A DNA stretch of 64,000 nt, taken from the human T2T-CHM13v2.0 reference genome, Homo sapiens. The position numbers were made by a program, and so were the translations under genes. Where the stretch lies: assembly GCF_009914755.1 (NCBI RefSeq), contig NC_060945.1. One strand, written 5' to 3'. Numbering within the stretch: the first letter of the stretch is position 1; each line of letters starts with the position of its first letter. This document shows, piece by piece, positions 22,864 through 57,105 of this stretch. Below the pieces are notes generated by a model that searched no databases, had not been told where the DNA came from, and worked only from the letters and a program-made list of their open reading frames with translations.

Positions 22864-23436
22864 AAGGAATTCTCAAAACTGACCCCAAGGAATATTTGGC
22901 AAAACACAGTGACATTACTGACTGCCACAATTGGGAGCTAAGGGTAAAAGGTGATACTGGAATCTAGCGGGAGAGGAAAAGAATACTGCTAAATGACTTG
23001 CAATAAACAGGACAGCTCCTGTATTAGTCTGTTTTCACACTGCTAAAAAGAACTGCTGGAGACTGCGTAATTTATAAAGAAAAGAGGTTTAACTGACTCA
23101 CAGTTCCTTATGCATGGGGATGCCTCAGGAAACTAACAATCATGATGGAAGAGGAAGCAGGCATATCTTACACAGCAGCAGGAGAGAAAGAGAGTGAGCA
23201 GGAGAAATTACCATTTATAAAATCATCAGCCCTCATGAGAACTCACTATCACAAGAACAGCATGGGGGAAACTGTCATCAAGATCCATTCACCTCCCACG
23301 AGGTATCTTGTTAGATACATGGGGATTACAGTTCGAGATGAGATTTGGGTGGGGACACAGAGCCGAACTATATCACCTCCCTACAGCAGAGAGTTCCTGG
23401 CTCAAAATGTCAATCACACTGATCTTGAGAAACTCT
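22864..23436 (+). mobile_element. MER20 hAT element split by a MaLR LTR
   Basis: ..ATACTGGAATCTAG..TGCTAAA..CAGGACAGCTCC | CCTACAGCAGAGAG..CAAAATGTCAAT..TTGAGAAACTCTG. Confidence 0.8.
23020..23375 (-). mobile_element. MSTA/THE1D-like MaLR solo LTR
   Basis: TGTATTAGTC...ACTATATCA; near-TSD GCTCC/CCTCC. Confidence 0.9.
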
Positions 23437-34639: not shown

Positions 34640-35003
34640 TATATTAGTCCGTTTTCAGCCTGCTTATATAAAGACATACCCAAAACTGGGTAATATATAA
34701 AGAAATTAGGTTTAATGAACTCACAGTTTCACGTGGCTGTGGAGGCCTCACAATCATGGCAGAAGGCAAAAGGCACGTCTTACATGGCAGCAGGCAAGAG
34801 AGAGAATGAGAACCAAGTGAAAGGGGTTTCCCCTTATACAACCATCAGATCTCGTGAGACTTACTCACTACCACGAGAACAGTATGGGGGAAATTGCCCT
34901 CATGATTCAATTATCTCCCACTAGTTTCCTCCTACAACACGTGGGAATTATGGGAGCTGCAATTCAAATGAGATTTGGGTCGGCACACAGCCAAACCATA
35001 TCA
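34640..35003 (-). mobile_element. THE1B solo LTR
   Basis: TATTAGTCCGTTTTCA...AAGTGAAAGGGGTTTCCCC...CCAAACCATATCA. Confidence 0.92.
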
Positions 35004-52189: not shown

Positions 52190-53438
52190 GCTGTTTTTGC
52201 TCTCTTTGAGAATCCTCACGGACTCATTCAAACTAGAATCCTCAAACTCACACTGACTGTGATGAGTTTTCCGGAATGAAAATTATAATACCAGCACGCG
52301 TTCCATATCTTCTTTCTCTTTCCTGCCTCCACCTGCAGCAAGCCCTCAAGTATCTATCAAGCTCCCCTTTCTAACAGATGAACCCGCTGGGCTAACTCTC
52401 CTCTTCTGGTTCCAGGATGGAATCAGTCTTGTCTAACTTCATGCCTGGAATGGCAATAGGTTTCCATTATCTATGTCCCCCTTTTGCTCACCTTTGGCTG
52501 TTATCTAGTCTGGTGTCTGAATTCCTTTTGTCCACATCTTCTTCCCTAGTGACTGCATAGCTTGTCCAGGTTGTTTCTCCCTCACATCAGTTCTTGCAAT
52601 CTTCTGACTTTTATGCAGGTTTTTTTGATCGTCTGTGTTTTTTTTTCTAGGACCTATATGCATCTGCCTGTTACAGAATTTTTCTATGCTCTAGTTTTTC
52701 ACTTGCCAGTGTAGTTTAACCCAATAATTTGTTCAATAGGCACTGAATGCAATTACTCGTGGATTTTCTTCCTCCAACTTCAGCATTTAGAAAAAGATAT
52801 TATTTCAAACCTAGCTCATTATCATGAGGCTTTTCTGCCTTCTTTCTTAAACATTTAATTCTCCCTCCCATGTCCACTCTGGTTTCTAGGTTAACACAGA
52901 CAATGCAATTTCCCACAAAGCCTCTGCTGCAACCTCTTCATTTCTTTCTAGGAATTATTCGTGCCATACTGAGTCCCAACTCTGTTAATTCTGATACCTA
53001 ATCCAGGAAGACATATCCTGGAATAAGTAGTAGATAAACTATGCTTCCGATTTCTCCTTAATCTAGATGATTAAGCGTAGAACTTAATCATTTATAGGAA
53101 TAAAATCCCCCATTTATTTTCCATAAAATAAGAATACAGATGAAAATGAAGAAGAAAAAATAAAGTAAAATTACAATCAGGTCACCAGCTGTTAGAAGTT
53201 AAATTGTGCCCTTCCATTCACCACTGGCAAAAAAAAAAAAAAAAAAAAAAAAATACACACACAAATACACACATATGTATATATTTAATGTGTGTATATA
53301 TAATATATATTTTATATATATATTAAAGATTATATATATTAGAAACCAAATTCCTAGTACCTCAGAATGCAGAGTGTGACCTTATTTGGAAATAGGGTCG
53401 TTGCAAAGGTTATTAGTTAAGATAAAGTCATAACTTGA

Positions 53439-53786
<348 letters not shown>

Positions 53787-53854
53787 TAATACAATATAAC
53801 TGATGTCCTTATACAAAGACAACAATGTGAAGACACACAAACACAGAGAGAACT

Positions 53855-54216
53855 TATGTTAGTTCATTTTCACCCTGCTAATAAAGATACAATCAAGACT
53901 GGGTAATTCATAAGGAAAAAGAAGTTTAATGGATTCACAGTTTCACATGGCTGGGGAGGCTTCACAATCATGGTAGAAGGCAAAGGAGGAAAAAGGCACA
54001 TCTTACATGGTGGCAGGCAAGAGACAGCATGTGCAGGGGAAGTGTCCCTTATAAAACCAGCAGATTTTGTGAGACTTATTCACTGTCACAAGAACAGCAT
54101 GAGAAAAACTCACCCCCATGATTCAGTTACCTCCCACCTGGTCCCTCCCATAACACAAGGGAATTATTACAATTCAAAGTGAGATTTGGGTAGGGACACA
54201 GAGCAAAACCGTATCA
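53855..54216 (-). mobile_element. THE1C-like LTR (3' LTR of the chimeric provirus)
   Basis: TATGTTAGTTCATTTTCAC..ATAAAGA..GGGACACAGAGCAAAACCGTATCA. Confidence 0.92.
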
Positions 54217-55844
54217 TTTCACCTGTGGCTCCTCCAACTCCCAAATCTTATGTCCTCACATTTCAAAACAAATTATGCCTTCCTAGCAGTCCCCCAAAGT
54301 CTTAACTCATTTCAGCATTAACTCAAAAGTCTACAGTCCAAAGTCTCATCTGAGGCAAGGCAAGTCCCTTCTGCCTATGAGCCTGTAAAATCTAAAGCAC
54401 GTTTGTTACTTCTTAGATACAATGGAGGTATGGTAATTGGGTAAATATACACATTGCAAATGGAATAAATAGGCCAAAACGCATGGGCTATAGGCCCCTT
54501 GCAAGACTGAAATCCAGAGAAGCAGTCAAATCTTGAAGCTTCAAAATGATCTCCTTTGACTCCATGTCTCACATCCAGGTCACACTGATGCAAGAAGTGG
54601 GCTCCCACAGCCTTGGGTAGCTCGGGCCCTGTGGCTTTGGAGGTCACAGTCTCCCTCCCACCCAGCTGCTTTCATGGGCTGTCATTGAGTGTCTGTGGCT
54701 TTTCCAAGCACACGGTGGAAGCTGTTGGTGGATCTACCATTCTGGGGTCAGAAGGATGATGGCCCTCATCTCACAGCTCCACTAGGCAGTGCCCTAGTGG
54801 GGACTCTGTGTGTGCGCTTAGACCCCACATTTCCCTTCCACACTGCCCTAACAGAGGCTCTCCATGAGGGTCCTTTCCCGGCAGCAAACTTCTGCTGGAC
54901 ATCCAAGCATTTCTATACATCCTCTGAAATCTAGGCAGAGGTTTCCAAACCTCAATTCGTGACTTCTGTGCACACACAGGCTCAACATCACATGGAAGCT
55001 GCCAAGGCTTGGGGCTTGCACCTTCTGAAGCCATGGGCCAAGTGAACCTTCACTCCTTTTAGCCACAGCTGTAGTGGCTGGGACGCAGGGCACCAAGTCC
55101 CTAGGCTGCACACAGCAGGGGGACCCTGGGCCTGGCCTATGAAACTGTTTTTTCTTCCTAGGCCTCCAGGCCTATGATGGGAGTGGCTGCAGTGAAGCTC
55201 TCTGACATGCCCTGGAGATATTTTCCTGATTGTCTTGGCAATTAACATTTGACTCCTAGTTACTTATGCAAATTTCTGCAGCCAGCTTGAATTTCTCCTC
55301 AGAAAATAAATTTTTCATTTGTCTTGTATCTTCAGGCTGCAAATTTTCCAAAGTTTTATGCTCTGCTTCCCTTTTAAATGTAAGTTCCAACTCCAAACAA
55401 TATCTTTGTAAATACATAAAACCGAATGCTTTTAACAGCACCCAAGTCACCTCTTGAATGCTTTGTTGCTTAGAAATTTCTTCTCCCAGATACCCTAAAT
55501 CATCTTTCTCAGGTTCAAAATTCCACAGATCTCTAGGGCAGGGACAACATAACACCAGTCTCTCTGCTAAAACATAGCAAGAGTCACCTTTATTCCAGTT
55601 CTCAACAAGTTCCTCATCTCCATCTAAAACCACCTCAACCTGGACTTCATTGTTCATGTCACTATCAGCATTTTGGTCAAAGCCATTCAACAAGTCCCTG
55701 GGAAGTTTCAAACTTTCTGACATCTTCCTGTCTTCTTCTGAGCCCTCCAAACTGTTCCAACCTCTGCCTGTTACCCAGTTCCAAAGTTGCTTCCACATTT
55801 CTAGGTATCTTCACAGCAGCACCCCGCTACCCAGTAACAATATC
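54217..55844 (-). mobile_element. THE1-int MaLR internal region, about 1.6 kb
   Basis: PBS-like start at 55844 (minus), MaLR ORF relic, degenerate polypurine tract next to the THE1 LTR. Confidence 0.92.
55256..55798 (-). pseudogene. MaLR (THE1) gag-like ORF remnant, 180 aa
   Basis: GRGWNSLEGSEEDRKM.ESL.LPRDLLNGFDQNADSDM..EVQ.EVV.DGDEELV.NW.KG.SCY is the MaLR internal ORF signature. Confidence 0.85.
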
Positions 55845-56389
55845 TGTATTAGTCAGGGTTCTCTAAAGGGACAGAACTAATAGGATAGAAGAATATATGA
55901 AGAGGAGTTTATTAGGGTGATTGACTCACATGATCACAAGGTGAAGTCCCACAATAGGCCACAAGCTGAGGAGCCAGGAAGCCAGTCCAAGCCTCAAAAC
56001 CTCAAAAGTAGGGAAGCTGATGGTGGAGCCTTCAGTCTGTGGCTGAAGGCCTGAGAGCCCCTGGCAAATCACTGGTGTATGCCCAAGAGTCCAAAAGCTG
56101 AAGAACATGGAGTCTGATGTTCGAGGGCAGGAAGCACCCAGCATGGGACAAAGATGGAGGCCAGAAGACTTAGCTAGTCTAGTCCTTCCACATTCTTCTG
56201 CCAGCTTTTGTTCTGGCCCTCCTGGCAGCCGATTGGATTATGCCCACCCAAATTGAGGGTGGGTCTGCCTCTCCCAGTCCACTAACTCAAGTGTTAATCT
56301 CCTTTGGCAACCCCCTCACAGACACACTCGGGAACAATACCTTGCATTCTTCAGTCCAATTAAGTTGACATTCAATATTAGCCATCACG
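55845..56389 (-). mobile_element. MLT2A2-like HERV-L LTR (5' LTR of the chimeric provirus)
   Basis: TGTATTAGTCAGGGTTCTCTAAAGGGACAGAACTAATAGG...AAGTTGACATTCAATATTAGCCATCAC; 545 bp. Confidence 0.92.
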
Positions 56390-57105
56390 GAACTCCATGT
56401 GAAGATGAGGAAAGGATTGGAGTGATACATATACAAGCCAAGAAATGCCAAGGATTCCTGGTCATTGCCAGAAGCTAGGAAAGAGGCAAGAAATAGATTC
56501 TCCTTAAGCACCCTCAGGAGTCAACCCTGCCAACACCTTGATCTTGGACTTCTGACTTTCAGAACTATGAGACAGTAAATATCTATTGTTTAAGTCACCC
56601 AGTTTGTGCTACTTTGTTGCAGTAGCCCTAGGAAACGAATACTCCAGCTCTGATTGATTCAAGAAACAAAATATTTAGGGGTACTAATATTGAATTAATA
56701 GGTTGCTCAATTATTAAAATGAAGAATAAGACTGTTACCAACATGAAAATTAAGTTCCAATTTGCATAGAAATAAGTGCTGTCCCTTGTAGTCCTGTTCC
56801 AACTGAATGTCATGATTTAGGAAGAACAAAACTGTTTCTTCTCTATAAAATATATTTTTCCACATCATAAAACTTACATATTCTATTATTAAGGAATAAA
56901 CATTCCCAGCAACTTATTTGATTTCATGTAATAGTGAAACACCCAGTAGAGGAAAGAATGCATTTTATCATAGCTACATGATCCACTTTTTAAATTGAAT
57001 TCATAGTATAACCAGTCTGTTACTAGGAAAAAAAAAGTGAAAACATGCTGATCAATTATCAGATCTCCCTGCTGCTTCAGTCTCTTCAGTGTACTCAAGC
57101 ATGCG

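What the first reader, a model, noticed from the sequence alone, without database searches (positions are those of the whole stretch)
53850..56394. Chimeric provirus with unrelated LTRs: HERV-L (MLT2A) 5' LTR + THE1 internal + THE1 3' LTR inside one TSD
Seen: on the minus strand a complete MLT2A-type LTR (55845-56389) directly abuts the PBS end of a full THE1 internal region (54217-55844), which ends in a complete THE1C-type LTR (53855-54216). The unit is flanked by an identical 5-bp duplication GAACT (53850-53854, 56390-56394), and the host MLT1C LTR reads through when it is removed, so this is a single integration. Established: reverse transcription normally yields identical LTRs; MaLRs encode no pol and are thought to be mobilised by ERV-L; the plus-strand strong-stop DNA (U3-R-U5+PBS) becomes the 5' LTR after a PBS-guided transfer. 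Inference: a HERV-L strong-stop DNA jumped onto a co-packaged THE1 minus strand. This explains why the foreign LTR is whole and sits on the 5'/PBS side. It would be a molecular fossil of a helper/parasite relationship, showing THE1C and MLT2A2 RNAs in the same particle. I cannot check whether this class of chimera is already described.
Basis: partly seen in the sequence, partly recalled or inferred. Interest (0 to 1): 0.82.

Follow-up and report, generated by a model that had tools for sequence, protein, structure and literature searches.

The report
Recurrent ERV-L/MaLR hybrid retroelements
This old retroelement really does carry a helper-virus (ERV-L) repeat at its front and its own (THE1) repeat at its back, and it is one of about two dozen such hybrids in the human genome whose join sits at the primer-binding site, as expected if parasite and helper were copied inside the same virus-like particle.

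Summary
On the minus strand, a complete 545-nt ERV-L-type (MLT2A-like) LTR abuts a THE1-type internal region and a complete 362-nt THE1-type LTR. The unit lies between identical 5-bp duplications inside an older LTR that is continuous once it is removed.

It is not unique. I found 24 independent hybrids of this build (25 with one probable). Ten of 11 full-length copies have a 5-bp duplication matching at 4/5 or better, against 1 of 264 shifted controls.

The join is mapped. The short spacer between LTR end and primer-binding site (PBS) is ERV-L-type in 17 of 18 hybrids, against 1 of 31 canonical MaLRs. The PBS carries MaLR-only variants in 8 of 18 hybrids, against 0 of 43 ERV-Ls. So the switch sits at the spacer/PBS boundary, where a helper's plus-strand strong-stop DNA would land on a MaLR minus strand.

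The two halves of the hybrids do not co-vary, so they arose repeatedly, at roughly 1 per 100 MaLR junctions.

Not shown:
- 5' bias was not tested.
- No clear reciprocal product was found.
- No orthologues could be checked.
- The subfamily names remain unverified.

Ten full-text searches found no description of this class. The classic MaLR/ERV-L papers I tried to open were not held.

The parts
56390..56394 (-). Target-site duplication, upstream copy (AGTTC on the element strand; GAACT on +)
   Evidence: read directly; 5/5 match with the downstream copy; shifted controls reach at most 3/5 at this locus
55845..56389 (-). 5' LTR of ERV-L type (MLT2A-like), complete, 545 nt
   Evidence: aligns q2-545 with LTRs of other loci at 71-87% by BLAST (78-88% in the MAFFT comparison); the same LTR type heads a pol-bearing provirus (L008/L120); an MLT2-type LTR end lies upstream of 39 of 39 ERV-L leaders.
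55840..55844 (-). Spacer GATAT between LTR end and PBS; ERV-L type
   Evidence: ERV-L proviruses L121-L124 and L126/L127 carry the same GATAT. Canonical MaLRs have a 6-nt spacer in 30 of 31.
55822..55839 (-). Primer-binding site, MaLR variant (TGTTACTGGGTAGCGGGG); the inferred crossover lies at or just inside its 5' edge
   Evidence: the 'TAG-type' PBS variant occurs in 0 of 43 ERV-L, 15 of 31 canonical MaLR and 8 of 18 hybrid junctions
54217..55821 (-). THE1-type (MaLR) internal region; no pol. Its longest open frame is 184 aa (55810..55256) and has no Pfam match
   Evidence: first 250 nt 88-90% identical to 16 canonical THE1 loci; middle 900 nt 78-84% identical to 39 other loci; 5 of 5 minus-strand frames of 90 aa or more have no Pfam family at E<=0.1
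53855..54216 (-). 3' LTR of THE1 (MaLR) type, complete, 362 nt
   Evidence: aligns q1-358/362 with MaLR LTRs; 72-82% to the 15 other copies compared; best partial matches 85-89%
53850..53854 (-). Target-site duplication, downstream copy (AGTTC on the element strand)
56395..56650 (-). Upstream part of the older host LTR (MLT1-like) that was split by the insertion
   Evidence: 39 other copies at 74-79%; continuity with the downstream part
53782..53849 (-). Downstream continuation of the host LTR, itself interrupted further on by a later Alu (about 53445-53774) and resuming at about 53330-53446

Best explanation
The element is a one-step integration of a hybrid cDNA. A non-autonomous MaLR (THE1-type) RNA and an ERV-L RNA were reverse-transcribed in the same particle. 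The ERV-L plus-strand strong-stop DNA (U3-R-U5, spacer, and a copy of the tRNA's 3' end) annealed through the shared PBS to the completed MaLR minus strand, in place of the MaLR's own strong-stop DNA. Extension of both strands gave an ERV-L 5' LTR, a MaLR internal region and a MaLR 3' LTR. The ERV-L-type integrase inserted this product, making a 5-bp duplication.

Such a hybrid cannot reproduce its own asymmetry, so each copy records a separate event. About 1 in 100 MaLR 5' junctions is of this kind.

Shown: the architecture, single integration, recurrence, independence of the copies, and the position of the switch at the spacer/PBS boundary. Inferred: co-packaging and the strand-transfer step itself.
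For: (1) Single integration. The TSD is AGTTC/AGTTC and the host LTR is continuous.

(2) Recurrence. Twenty other places span the junction. Eleven of the 20 have the full architecture. L004 and L005, L125, L132 and L133, and L138, L146 and L167 with probable L147 are further hybrids. Six loci are segmental duplicates of one event, and no other pair of the 21 flanks compared shares flanks. That gives 24-25 independent events.

(3) Each is a unit. Ten of 11 full-length copies have a TSD matching at 4/5 or better, 3 of them perfectly, against 1 of 264 shifted controls.

(4) Switch point. The spacer is ERV-L-type in 17 of 18 hybrids against 1 of 31 canonical MaLRs (Fisher 5e-11). The MaLR-only PBS variant occurs in 8 of 18 hybrids, 0 of 43 ERV-Ls (1.5e-5) and 15 of 31 MaLRs (p=1).

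(5) Compatible donors. ERV-L and MaLR share the last 8-10 nt of the LTR and 15 nt of the PBS.

(6) Not a lineage. Hybrid MLT2A LTRs are 75-88% alike among themselves and 77-86% like canonical ones. The MaLR LTRs fall into at least two groups. The two halves do not co-vary (r=0.18, Mantel p=0.26, 8 hybrids). The window's halves are closer to canonical copies (88-90%) than to other hybrids (74-86%).

(7) The textbook second strand transfer works by PBS pairing (PMC6088434, passages seen). HIV data argue that it can be intermolecular (PMC5651808, abstract).
Against: Two hybrids carry a MaLR-type spacer: L023 GTAAAT and L132 GAAAAG. That is 2 of the 20 found without reference to their spacer. The simple model does not predict them.

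No clear reciprocal product (MaLR 5' LTR on an ERV-L interior) was seen. None of 39 ERV-L junctions read was one. Of the 8 matches in the 6-nt-spacer/ERV-L-leader cell, 0-2 could be, against 446 ordinary ERV-L junctions. If formation were symmetric, about 4-5 would be expected at that stringency.

The 5' bias is untested, because ascertainment was through the 5' junction.

Older MaLRs with a different LTR end natively carry GATTT. The spacer therefore discriminates only against MST/THE1-era MaLRs. That suffices for the window's element, whose 16 nearest relatives all have 6-nt spacers.

One full-length hybrid (L012) has no convincing TSD (2/5). Two others (L022, L028) reach 4/5 only if a 1-2-nt terminal indel is assumed.

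No orthologous empty or filled sites could be examined.
Confidence: 0.68

Rival explanations
1. Homology-driven recombination between unintegrated ERV-L and MaLR cDNAs before integration (single-strand annealing or copy choice). It would use the roughly 30 nt they share (LTR terminus, spacer, PBS) and would not involve strong-stop transfer as such.
For: The shared homology exists. The two hybrids with a MaLR-type spacer (L023, L132) need a crossover in the shared LTR terminus, which this model allows. L111, a MaLR LTR end followed by GATTT, could be the converse product.
Against: Going by tract length (10 nt of LTR end against 15 nt of PBS), 40% of crossovers should lie upstream of the spacer. 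Observed: 2 of 21 (P=0.0024; one of the 21, L125, was found through its spacer, so the unbiased figure is 2 of 20). In 8 of the 18 tabulated hybrids (and also in L125) the PBS is a MaLR variant, leaving about 6 nt of identity next to the spacer, yet the switch is there. This model would still require both cDNAs in one place, so it does not remove the helper/parasite inference.
Confidence: 0.15
2. A self-propagating hybrid family: one ancestral chimera amplified while keeping two different LTRs.
For: There are many copies with the same architecture. Five of the 18 tabulated hybrids, and also L125, share the spacer GATAT.
Against: By the standard reverse-transcription scheme, progeny LTRs are U3 (from the 3' LTR), R, and U5 (from the 5' LTR) at both ends, so the asymmetry cannot be inherited (established mechanism; inference). 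Hybrids are no closer to each other than to canonical copies in either half, and the halves do not co-vary. GATAT is also found in ordinary ERV-L proviruses. The flanks are unrelated except for one segmental-duplication group.
Confidence: 0.05
3. Post-integration origin: two separate insertions followed by an exact deletion, or gene conversion or ectopic exchange replacing the THE1 5' LTR with an MLT2A LTR.
For: Old repeats are often rearranged. Nine of the 20 fetched loci are truncated or deleted downstream.
Against: It would have to recreate an exact LTR-end/spacer/PBS junction and a matching 5-bp duplication around the whole unit, at 10 of 11 independent loci. Conversion has no homology on the flank side. 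No residual THE1 LTR lies upstream. The 5 nt on either side of the MLT2A part alone differ (AGTTC against GATAT).
Confidence: 0.03

Closest known systems
Canonical THE1/MST MaLR elements (non-autonomous class III LTR retrotransposons)
   Same: The internal region, PPT side, 3' LTR, 5-bp TSD and PBS variants are the same. There is no pol. Zuo 2023 (PMC10735291, Introduction read) states that MaLRs have only a putative gag frame and cannot replicate independently.
   Different: The 5' LTR and the spacer before the PBS are ERV-L-type, not MaLR-type.
HERV-L proviruses with MLT2A LTRs
   Same: The 5' LTR, its terminal CTAATACA, the GATTT/GATAT spacer and the PBS core TGGTACCAGGAGTGG are the same. 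Repbase pairs HERVL with MLT2A1/MLT2A2 (PMC5753468, table passage seen).
   Different: There is no ERV-L leader, gag or pol, and the 3' LTR is of another family.
Intermolecular second (plus-strand) strand transfer in retroviruses
   Same: The proposed step is the same: strong-stop DNA from one template pairs through the PBS with a minus strand copied from the other. Cappy et al. 2017 (PMC5651808, abstract) say the second transfer is 'generally intramolecular' and argue from HIV-1 recombinants that it can be intermolecular.
   Different: Here the two templates belong to different families (a helper and its parasite), so the two LTRs are unrelated over almost their whole length. The evidence is fossil copies, not single-cycle assays.
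Template-switch complexes and 'LTR swapping' between autonomous and non-autonomous plant LTR retrotransposons
   Same: The logic is the same: TSD-flanked abnormal elements are explained by co-packaged different RNAs (Sabot & Schulman 2007, PMC1950507, Results read). Du et al. 2010 (Plant Cell) is known to me only from its title in a reference list; the paper is not held.
   Different: Sabot & Schulman describe LTR-internal-LTR-internal-LTR complexes whose outer LTRs are alike, formed at the first (R-mediated) transfer. They do not describe two unlike LTRs joined at the PBS.
Mosaic or recombinant HERVs (Vargiu et al. 2016; HARLEQUIN)
   Same: They are ERVs built from parts of different families (PMC4724089 and PMC5753468, passages seen).
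   Different: Those have internal mosaicism, or secondary insertions, with matching LTRs. Vargiu et al. state that a thorough analysis of MaLR was outside their scope.

Membership tests
Single-integration LTR retroelement of class III (ERV-L/MaLR) type | 5-bp target-site duplication directly flanking the two LTR termini | tested here: met
   AGTTC/AGTTC. The host repeat is continuous with one copy of the 5-mer.
Single-integration LTR retroelement of class III (ERV-L/MaLR) type | LTR termini TG...CA | tested here: inconclusive
   In the window the termini read CG...TA, consistent with one or two substitutions per terminus. Seven of the other 10 full-length hybrids start TG, and 8 of 10 end CA.
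Canonical MaLR (THE1) element | Internal region of THE1 type without pol | tested here: met
Canonical MaLR (THE1) element | Both LTRs of the same MaLR family | tested here: not met
   The 5' LTR is ERV-L-type. There is no THE1 LTR upstream.
HERV-L provirus | ERV-L leader, gag and pol between two MLT2 LTRs | tested here: not met
   The sequence after the PBS is MaLR, not ERV-L leader. The 3' LTR is MaLR.
Product of intermolecular plus-strand strong-stop transfer | The whole 5' LTR, plus every base up to the PBS, comes from donor A; everything from the PBS on comes from donor B | tested here: met
   ERV-L-type spacer with a MaLR-variant PBS in the window's element and in 7 other tabulated hybrids. 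Spacer ERV-L-type in 17 of 18. Exceptions: L023 and L132.
Product of intermolecular plus-strand strong-stop transfer | Both donors use the same primer-binding site | tested here: met
   The core TGGTACCAGGAGTGG is present in ERV-L and in MaLR junctions. That the primer is tRNA-Leu is recalled, not tested.
Product of intermolecular plus-strand strong-stop transfer | The two RNAs are in one particle, and the transfer happens during reverse transcription | not testable with these tools
   Inference only
Product of intermolecular plus-strand strong-stop transfer | The foreign LTR is always on the 5' side; a reciprocal product may exist | tested here: inconclusive
   The 5' bias was not tested, because ascertainment was through the 5' junction. 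Reciprocal product: 0 of 39 and 0-2 of 8.

The most novel reading that the evidence does not exclude
These hybrids are a countable fossil record showing that MaLR RNAs were reverse-transcribed inside the same particles as ERV-L RNAs from the MST era into the THE1 era. About 1 in 100 MaLR integrations took its whole 5' LTR from the helper by intermolecular second-strand transfer. The lack of reciprocal products suggests that the helper's own cDNA usually did not finish in such mixed particles. This would be the first physical evidence, as opposed to evidence from similarity, that ERV-L was the MaLR helper. It would also give a natural rate for a step that laboratory work treats as almost always intramolecular.
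Probability: 0.5. Interest if true: 0.75.

Novelty: new variant of a known kind. Interest (0 to 1): 0.62.

Why it matters
MaLRs make up about 4% of the human genome and cannot replicate on their own (PMC10735291, Introduction). That ERV-L was their helper rests on similarity. Hybrids whose join sits at the PBS are hard to make unless both templates shared one reverse-transcription complex, so they turn the helper hypothesis into something that can be counted and dated. Each hybrid pairs a datable MaLR subfamily with the ERV-L LTR active at that time.

They also give an in-vivo estimate, of the order of 1%, for intermolecular second-strand transfer.

There is a practical consequence. Pipelines that join LTRs and internal parts by family name (for example the pairing rules in PMC1794541, passage seen) would, I infer, split these units into a 'solo MLT2A' and a '5'-truncated THE1'. 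That would distort solo-LTR counts and any dating by LTR divergence.

Tried and rejected
- **Faulty parser.** My first junction parser latched onto false upstream positions. Its table is discarded and one search replaces it. The 'downstream' label column is unreliable for the short ERV-L strings and is not used.
- **'GTGGGGTG' as a mark of MaLR interior.** This proved too short. Of the 34 candidates read from the 5-nt-spacer cell, only 3-4 were hybrids. The others were 8 ordinary ERV-L junctions, 5 copies of a deleted ERV-L form, 3 units of a tandem array, 6 older-type MaLR-like loci and 8-9 truncated, unrelated or unclassified loci.
- **Spacer length as the discriminator.** This was dropped after canonical MaLRs with a 5-nt GAAAT were found. 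The discriminator is GAT.T against G.AA(A)T.
- **GATAT as a hybrid-lineage marker.** Rejected, because ordinary ERV-L proviruses carry it.
- **Whole-element fetches of the 30 best internal-region relatives.** No tree of hybrids among many canonical full-length copies was built.
- **5'-bias test.** Not done.
- **Papers.** PMC309426 (the id I recalled for Smit 1993), PMC104094 (Benit 1999) and PMC2828711 (Du 2010) are not held. Cordonnier 1995 and Smit 1999 were not tried. Any of these could mention such hybrids. No supplementary files were opened.
Full report
**What is there.** Read on the minus strand, the region is:
- AGTTC (56394..56390);
- a 545-nt LTR (56389..55845) that starts CGTGATGG and ends CTAATACA;
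- a 5-nt spacer GATAT (55844..55840);
- an 18-nt primer-binding site (PBS) TGTTACTGGGTAGCGGGG (55839..55822);
- about 1.6 kb of internal sequence, down to 54217;
- a 362-nt LTR (54216..53855) that starts TGATACGG and ends CTAACATA;
- AGTTC again (53854..53850).

The two LTRs are unrelated at BLAST level. Within the window the second LTR matches only two other places (34640-35003 and 23024-23375). The first LTR and the internal part match nothing else in the window.

**Family assignment.** No repeat library was at hand, so I assigned families by context.
- The first LTR aligns end to end (q2-545) with LTRs elsewhere. One of these, L008, is followed by a leader and by decayed RT, RNase H and integrase frames in that order (RT_RNaseH_2 is above Pfam's cut-off, RVT_1 and rve are below it). 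The terminal part of this LTR type lies upstream of 39 of 39 sampled copies of that leader. It is therefore the LTR of a pol-bearing ERV. The name MLT2A/HERV-L is my recollection; Repbase does pair HERVL with MLT2A1/2 (PMC5753468, table passage).
- The first 250 nt of the internal region match 16 loci at 88-90%. All 16 have upstream the end of an LTR of the second type. So the internal part and the second LTR belong together, as a THE1-type MaLR.
- The five minus-strand frames of 90 aa or more in the internal region have no Pfam match.
- The subfamily labels MLT2A2, THE1C and MLT1C remain unverified.

**One integration.** The flanks belong to one older LTR: 39 other copies match the upstream flank at 74-79%. 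I compared both flanks with 11 of these copies.
- In L042 the upstream flank (to q256) and the downstream flank, beginning with its 5-bp copy, abut directly.
- In L034, L035, L037, L038, L040 and L041 the distance between the end of the upstream flank and the piece beyond the later Alu is 59-69 nt, against 68 nt expected.
- There is no leftover THE1 LTR upstream.
- The 5 nt either side of the first LTR alone do not match.

**It is not unique.**
- A 501-nt query centred on the LTR/internal junction found 20 other places spanning both halves at 74-86% (40 candidates scored of 5505; the rest were 16 internal-only and 3 LTR-only matches at 88-90%).
- All 20 were fetched and mapped against the three parts. 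Eleven have ERV-L-type LTR, MaLR internal region and MaLR LTR. Nine are truncated or deleted downstream.
- Further hybrids came from the loci (L004, L005), from a second hybrid used as query (L132 and L133 read), and from motif searches (L125; L138, L146, L167 and probable L147).
- L016, L017, L020, L021, L024 and L025 share flanks that are 94-99.9% identical and count as one event. No other pair of the 21 compared shares flanks. C22:17132024 was not read and is not counted.
- The total is 24 independent events, or 25 with L147.

**Each is a unit.** I compared the 5 nt outside the two termini for the window's element and the 10 other full-length copies with an intact 5' end. L013 was dropped because its first LTR is 5'-truncated.
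- Three match 5/5 (window, L026, L030), seven match 4/5, and one matches 2/5 (L012).
- Shifting the downstream 5-mer by 1-12 nt either way gives 4/5 or better in 1 of 264 comparisons.
- L022 and L028 reach 4/5 only with a terminal indel that I assumed.

**Where the two families are joined.** ERV-L and MaLR share the last 8-10 nt of the LTR (…CTAATACA) and the PBS core TGGTACCAGGAGTGG. They differ in the spacer between these, and in what follows the PBS. One search gives the table (one search was a faulty first attempt):

| Class | Spacer | 'TAG-type' PBS variant |
|---|---|---|
| ERV-L junctions (43) | 5 nt in 42 (GATTT 41, GGTTT 1); one 4-nt GATT | 0 of 43 |
| Canonical MaLR junctions (31) | 6 nt in 30 (GTAAAT 16, the rest one- or two-base variants); GATTT in 1 (L111) | 15 of 31 |
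| Independent hybrids (18) | GATTT 8, GATAT 5, GACGT, GATTC, GATGT, GATTTTT (L004), GTAAAT (L023) | 8 of 18, including the window's |

- GATAT is a genuine ERV-L variant. L121-L124 and L126/L127 are ERV-L proviruses with GATAT followed by ERV-L leader.
- So in the hybrids the spacer comes from ERV-L (17 of 18 against 1 of 31; Fisher 5e-11). The PBS behaves like a MaLR PBS (against ERV-L 1.5e-5; against MaLR p=1).
- The switch therefore lies at the spacer/PBS boundary, in several cases within about 6 nt.
- Caveat: some canonical MaLRs have a 5-nt GAAAT (L128, L129, L131).
- Caveat: older MaLR-like elements with another LTR end carry GATTT natively (L134, L144, L145, L149, L152, L165). GATTT looks ancestral and the 6-nt spacer looks like a derived MST/THE1 state. 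The window's 16 nearest relatives all have the 6-nt form.

**Mechanism.** In the standard scheme (PMC6088434, passages seen), the minus strand ends at the 5' edge of the PBS. The plus-strand strong-stop DNA carries U3-R-U5, the spacer and a copy of the tRNA's 3' end. The two pair through the PBS and are then extended. If the strong-stop DNA comes from a co-resident ERV-L template and the minus strand from a MaLR template, the product is what is seen:
- an ERV-L LTR and ERV-L spacer;
- a PBS that can resolve to the MaLR version;
- a MaLR interior and a MaLR 3' LTR.

Both strong-stop DNAs end in the same tRNA copy, so they are equally able to pair. The ERV-L and MaLR LTR ends are alike, so one integrase can use both.

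**Why the copies are separate events.** Such a hybrid cannot copy its own asymmetry, because progeny LTRs would be U3 (from the 3' LTR), R, and U5 (from the 5' LTR) at both ends. The data agree with repeated origin:
- Hybrid ERV-L LTRs are 75-88% alike among themselves and 77-86% like four canonical ones.
- The MaLR LTRs fall into at least two groups: {window, L013, L023, L026 and canonical copies} and {L022, L027, L029}.
- Identity in one half does not predict identity in the other (r=0.18, Mantel p=0.26; 8 hybrids, 28 pairs).

**Frequency.** I ran four motif searches at equal stringency (26 fixed bases, up to 2 mismatches):

| Spacer length and downstream type | Matches |
|---|---|
| 5-nt spacer + ERV-L leader | 446 |
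| 6-nt spacer + MaLR start | 543 |
| 5-nt spacer + MaLR start | 48 |
| 6-nt spacer + ERV-L leader | 8 |

- Of the 48 in the third row, I read 34 in context, and one more (L019) was already known. Four or five are true hybrids: L019, L138, L146, L167 and probably L147. The 13 not read had MaLR-like spacers.
- That puts hybrids at roughly 1% of MaLR junctions with a well-kept standard PBS.
- Of the 8 in the last row, one is an ERV-L with an extra T, five are canonical MaLRs that reach the pattern through mismatches, and two are ambiguous and unread.
- The reciprocal product is therefore at most rare: 0-2 there, and 0 of 39. If real, this asymmetry could mean that the long helper minus strand seldom finishes in mixed particles. 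That is speculation.

**What does not fit, or is open.**
- L023 and L132 have an ERV-L LTR but a MaLR-type spacer. L111 is the converse. These need a crossover in the shared LTR terminus, or an unsampled parental variant.
- A homology-driven model predicts 40% of such cases by tract length. Observed: 2 of 21 (P=0.0024).
- No orthologues could be examined.
- Ages are only roughly comparable. Best outside matches are 89% for the ERV-L LTR's last 250 nt, 85-89% for the THE1 LTR's last 146 nt, 88-90% for the internal start and up to 84% for the internal middle.

**Literature.** Ten full-text searches found no description of ERV-L/MaLR elements with unlike LTRs.
- Zuo 2023, the dedicated study of primate MaLR evolution (outline, Introduction and term search read), has no occurrence of 'MLT2', 'hybrid' or 'chimer'. 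It says its model ignores recombination.
- Vargiu 2016 (passages) left MaLR outside its scope.
- Related concepts exist: intermolecular second-strand transfer in HIV-1 (Cappy 2017, abstract), template-switch complexes in grasses (Sabot & Schulman 2007, Results), and 'LTR swapping' in soybean (Du 2010, title only).
- PMC309426 (recalled id for Smit 1993) and Benit 1999 were not held. Cordonnier 1995 and Smit 1999 were not tried. No supplements were opened. Prior mention there cannot be excluded.

**Verdict.** The finding is broader than reported: it is a recurrent class, not a single fossil. It is a new variant of a known kind of event.

Noticed in passing
L135, L136, L137, L155, L160 (G000 C2:230.60 Mb, C3:35.14 Mb, C6:9.42 Mb, C7:68.13 Mb, C21:15.70 Mb): Five loci share an MLT2-type LTR end, GATTT (CATTT in one) and the PBS, followed by the same non-leader sequence (cagaacaggagaaggctctg...). 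This looks like an internally deleted, amplified ERV-L derivative, that is, another non-autonomous form.
   Followed up: no
L157-L159 (G000 C19:15838161-15838276 and C19:16035621-16035811): A unit of about 75 nt, made of the MLT2-type LTR end, GATTT and the PBS, is repeated head to tail. It is a small tandem array derived from an ERV-L 5' junction.
   Followed up: no
L134, L144, L145, L149, L152, L165: Loci with a different LTR end (...gcaaac/ggaaac TAATACA); in four or five of them (L134, L144, L145, L149, L165) an internal region of the 'acaaatacctaaaaatgtggaagtggctttgg' type is recognisable. All six carry the spacer GATTT (or GACTT / AATAT variants) natively. The 6-nt G[T/A]AAAT spacer therefore seems to be a derived trait of the MST/THE1 lineage.
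   Followed up: partly
L111 (G000 C5:136257698-136257798): A MaLR-type LTR end is followed by the ERV-L-type spacer GATTT and a MaLR-variant PBS. This is the converse of L023 and L132, and suggests occasional crossovers within the shared LTR terminus.
   Followed up: no
L079 (G000 C23:62644218-62644293): This place matched the ERV-L leader over its full 500 nt, yet it reads GGGGTG rather than TTCT directly after the PBS core. Only 19 nt were seen.
   Followed up: no
L016 (C4:106.24 Mb), L017/L020/L021 (C2:89.5-92.1 Mb), L024 (C10:38.7 Mb), L025 (C24:11.6 Mb); probably also C22:17.13 Mb: One truncated hybrid, with at least 3.7 kb of flank, was copied by segmental duplication to at least six places (flanks 94-99.9% identical).
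   Followed up: partly
window 53445-53774 (minus strand): An Alu with a poly-A tail of about 20 nt was inserted into the same host LTR 76 nt downstream of the hybrid. Beyond it lie a long T/A run and a (TA)n/(TG)n microsatellite at about 53229-53340.
   Followed up: no
window 55256-55810 (minus strand): A 184-aa stop-free frame lies at the 5' end of the THE1-type internal region and has no Pfam match. It may be the remnant of the putative MaLR gag frame mentioned by Zuo 2023.
   Followed up: partly
L015 438-2073 (+), L028 8425-8783, L029 7837-9001: Several hybrid loci have other MaLR copies within a few kb. L029 has a canonical LTR-internal element 1.4 kb downstream.
   Followed up: no
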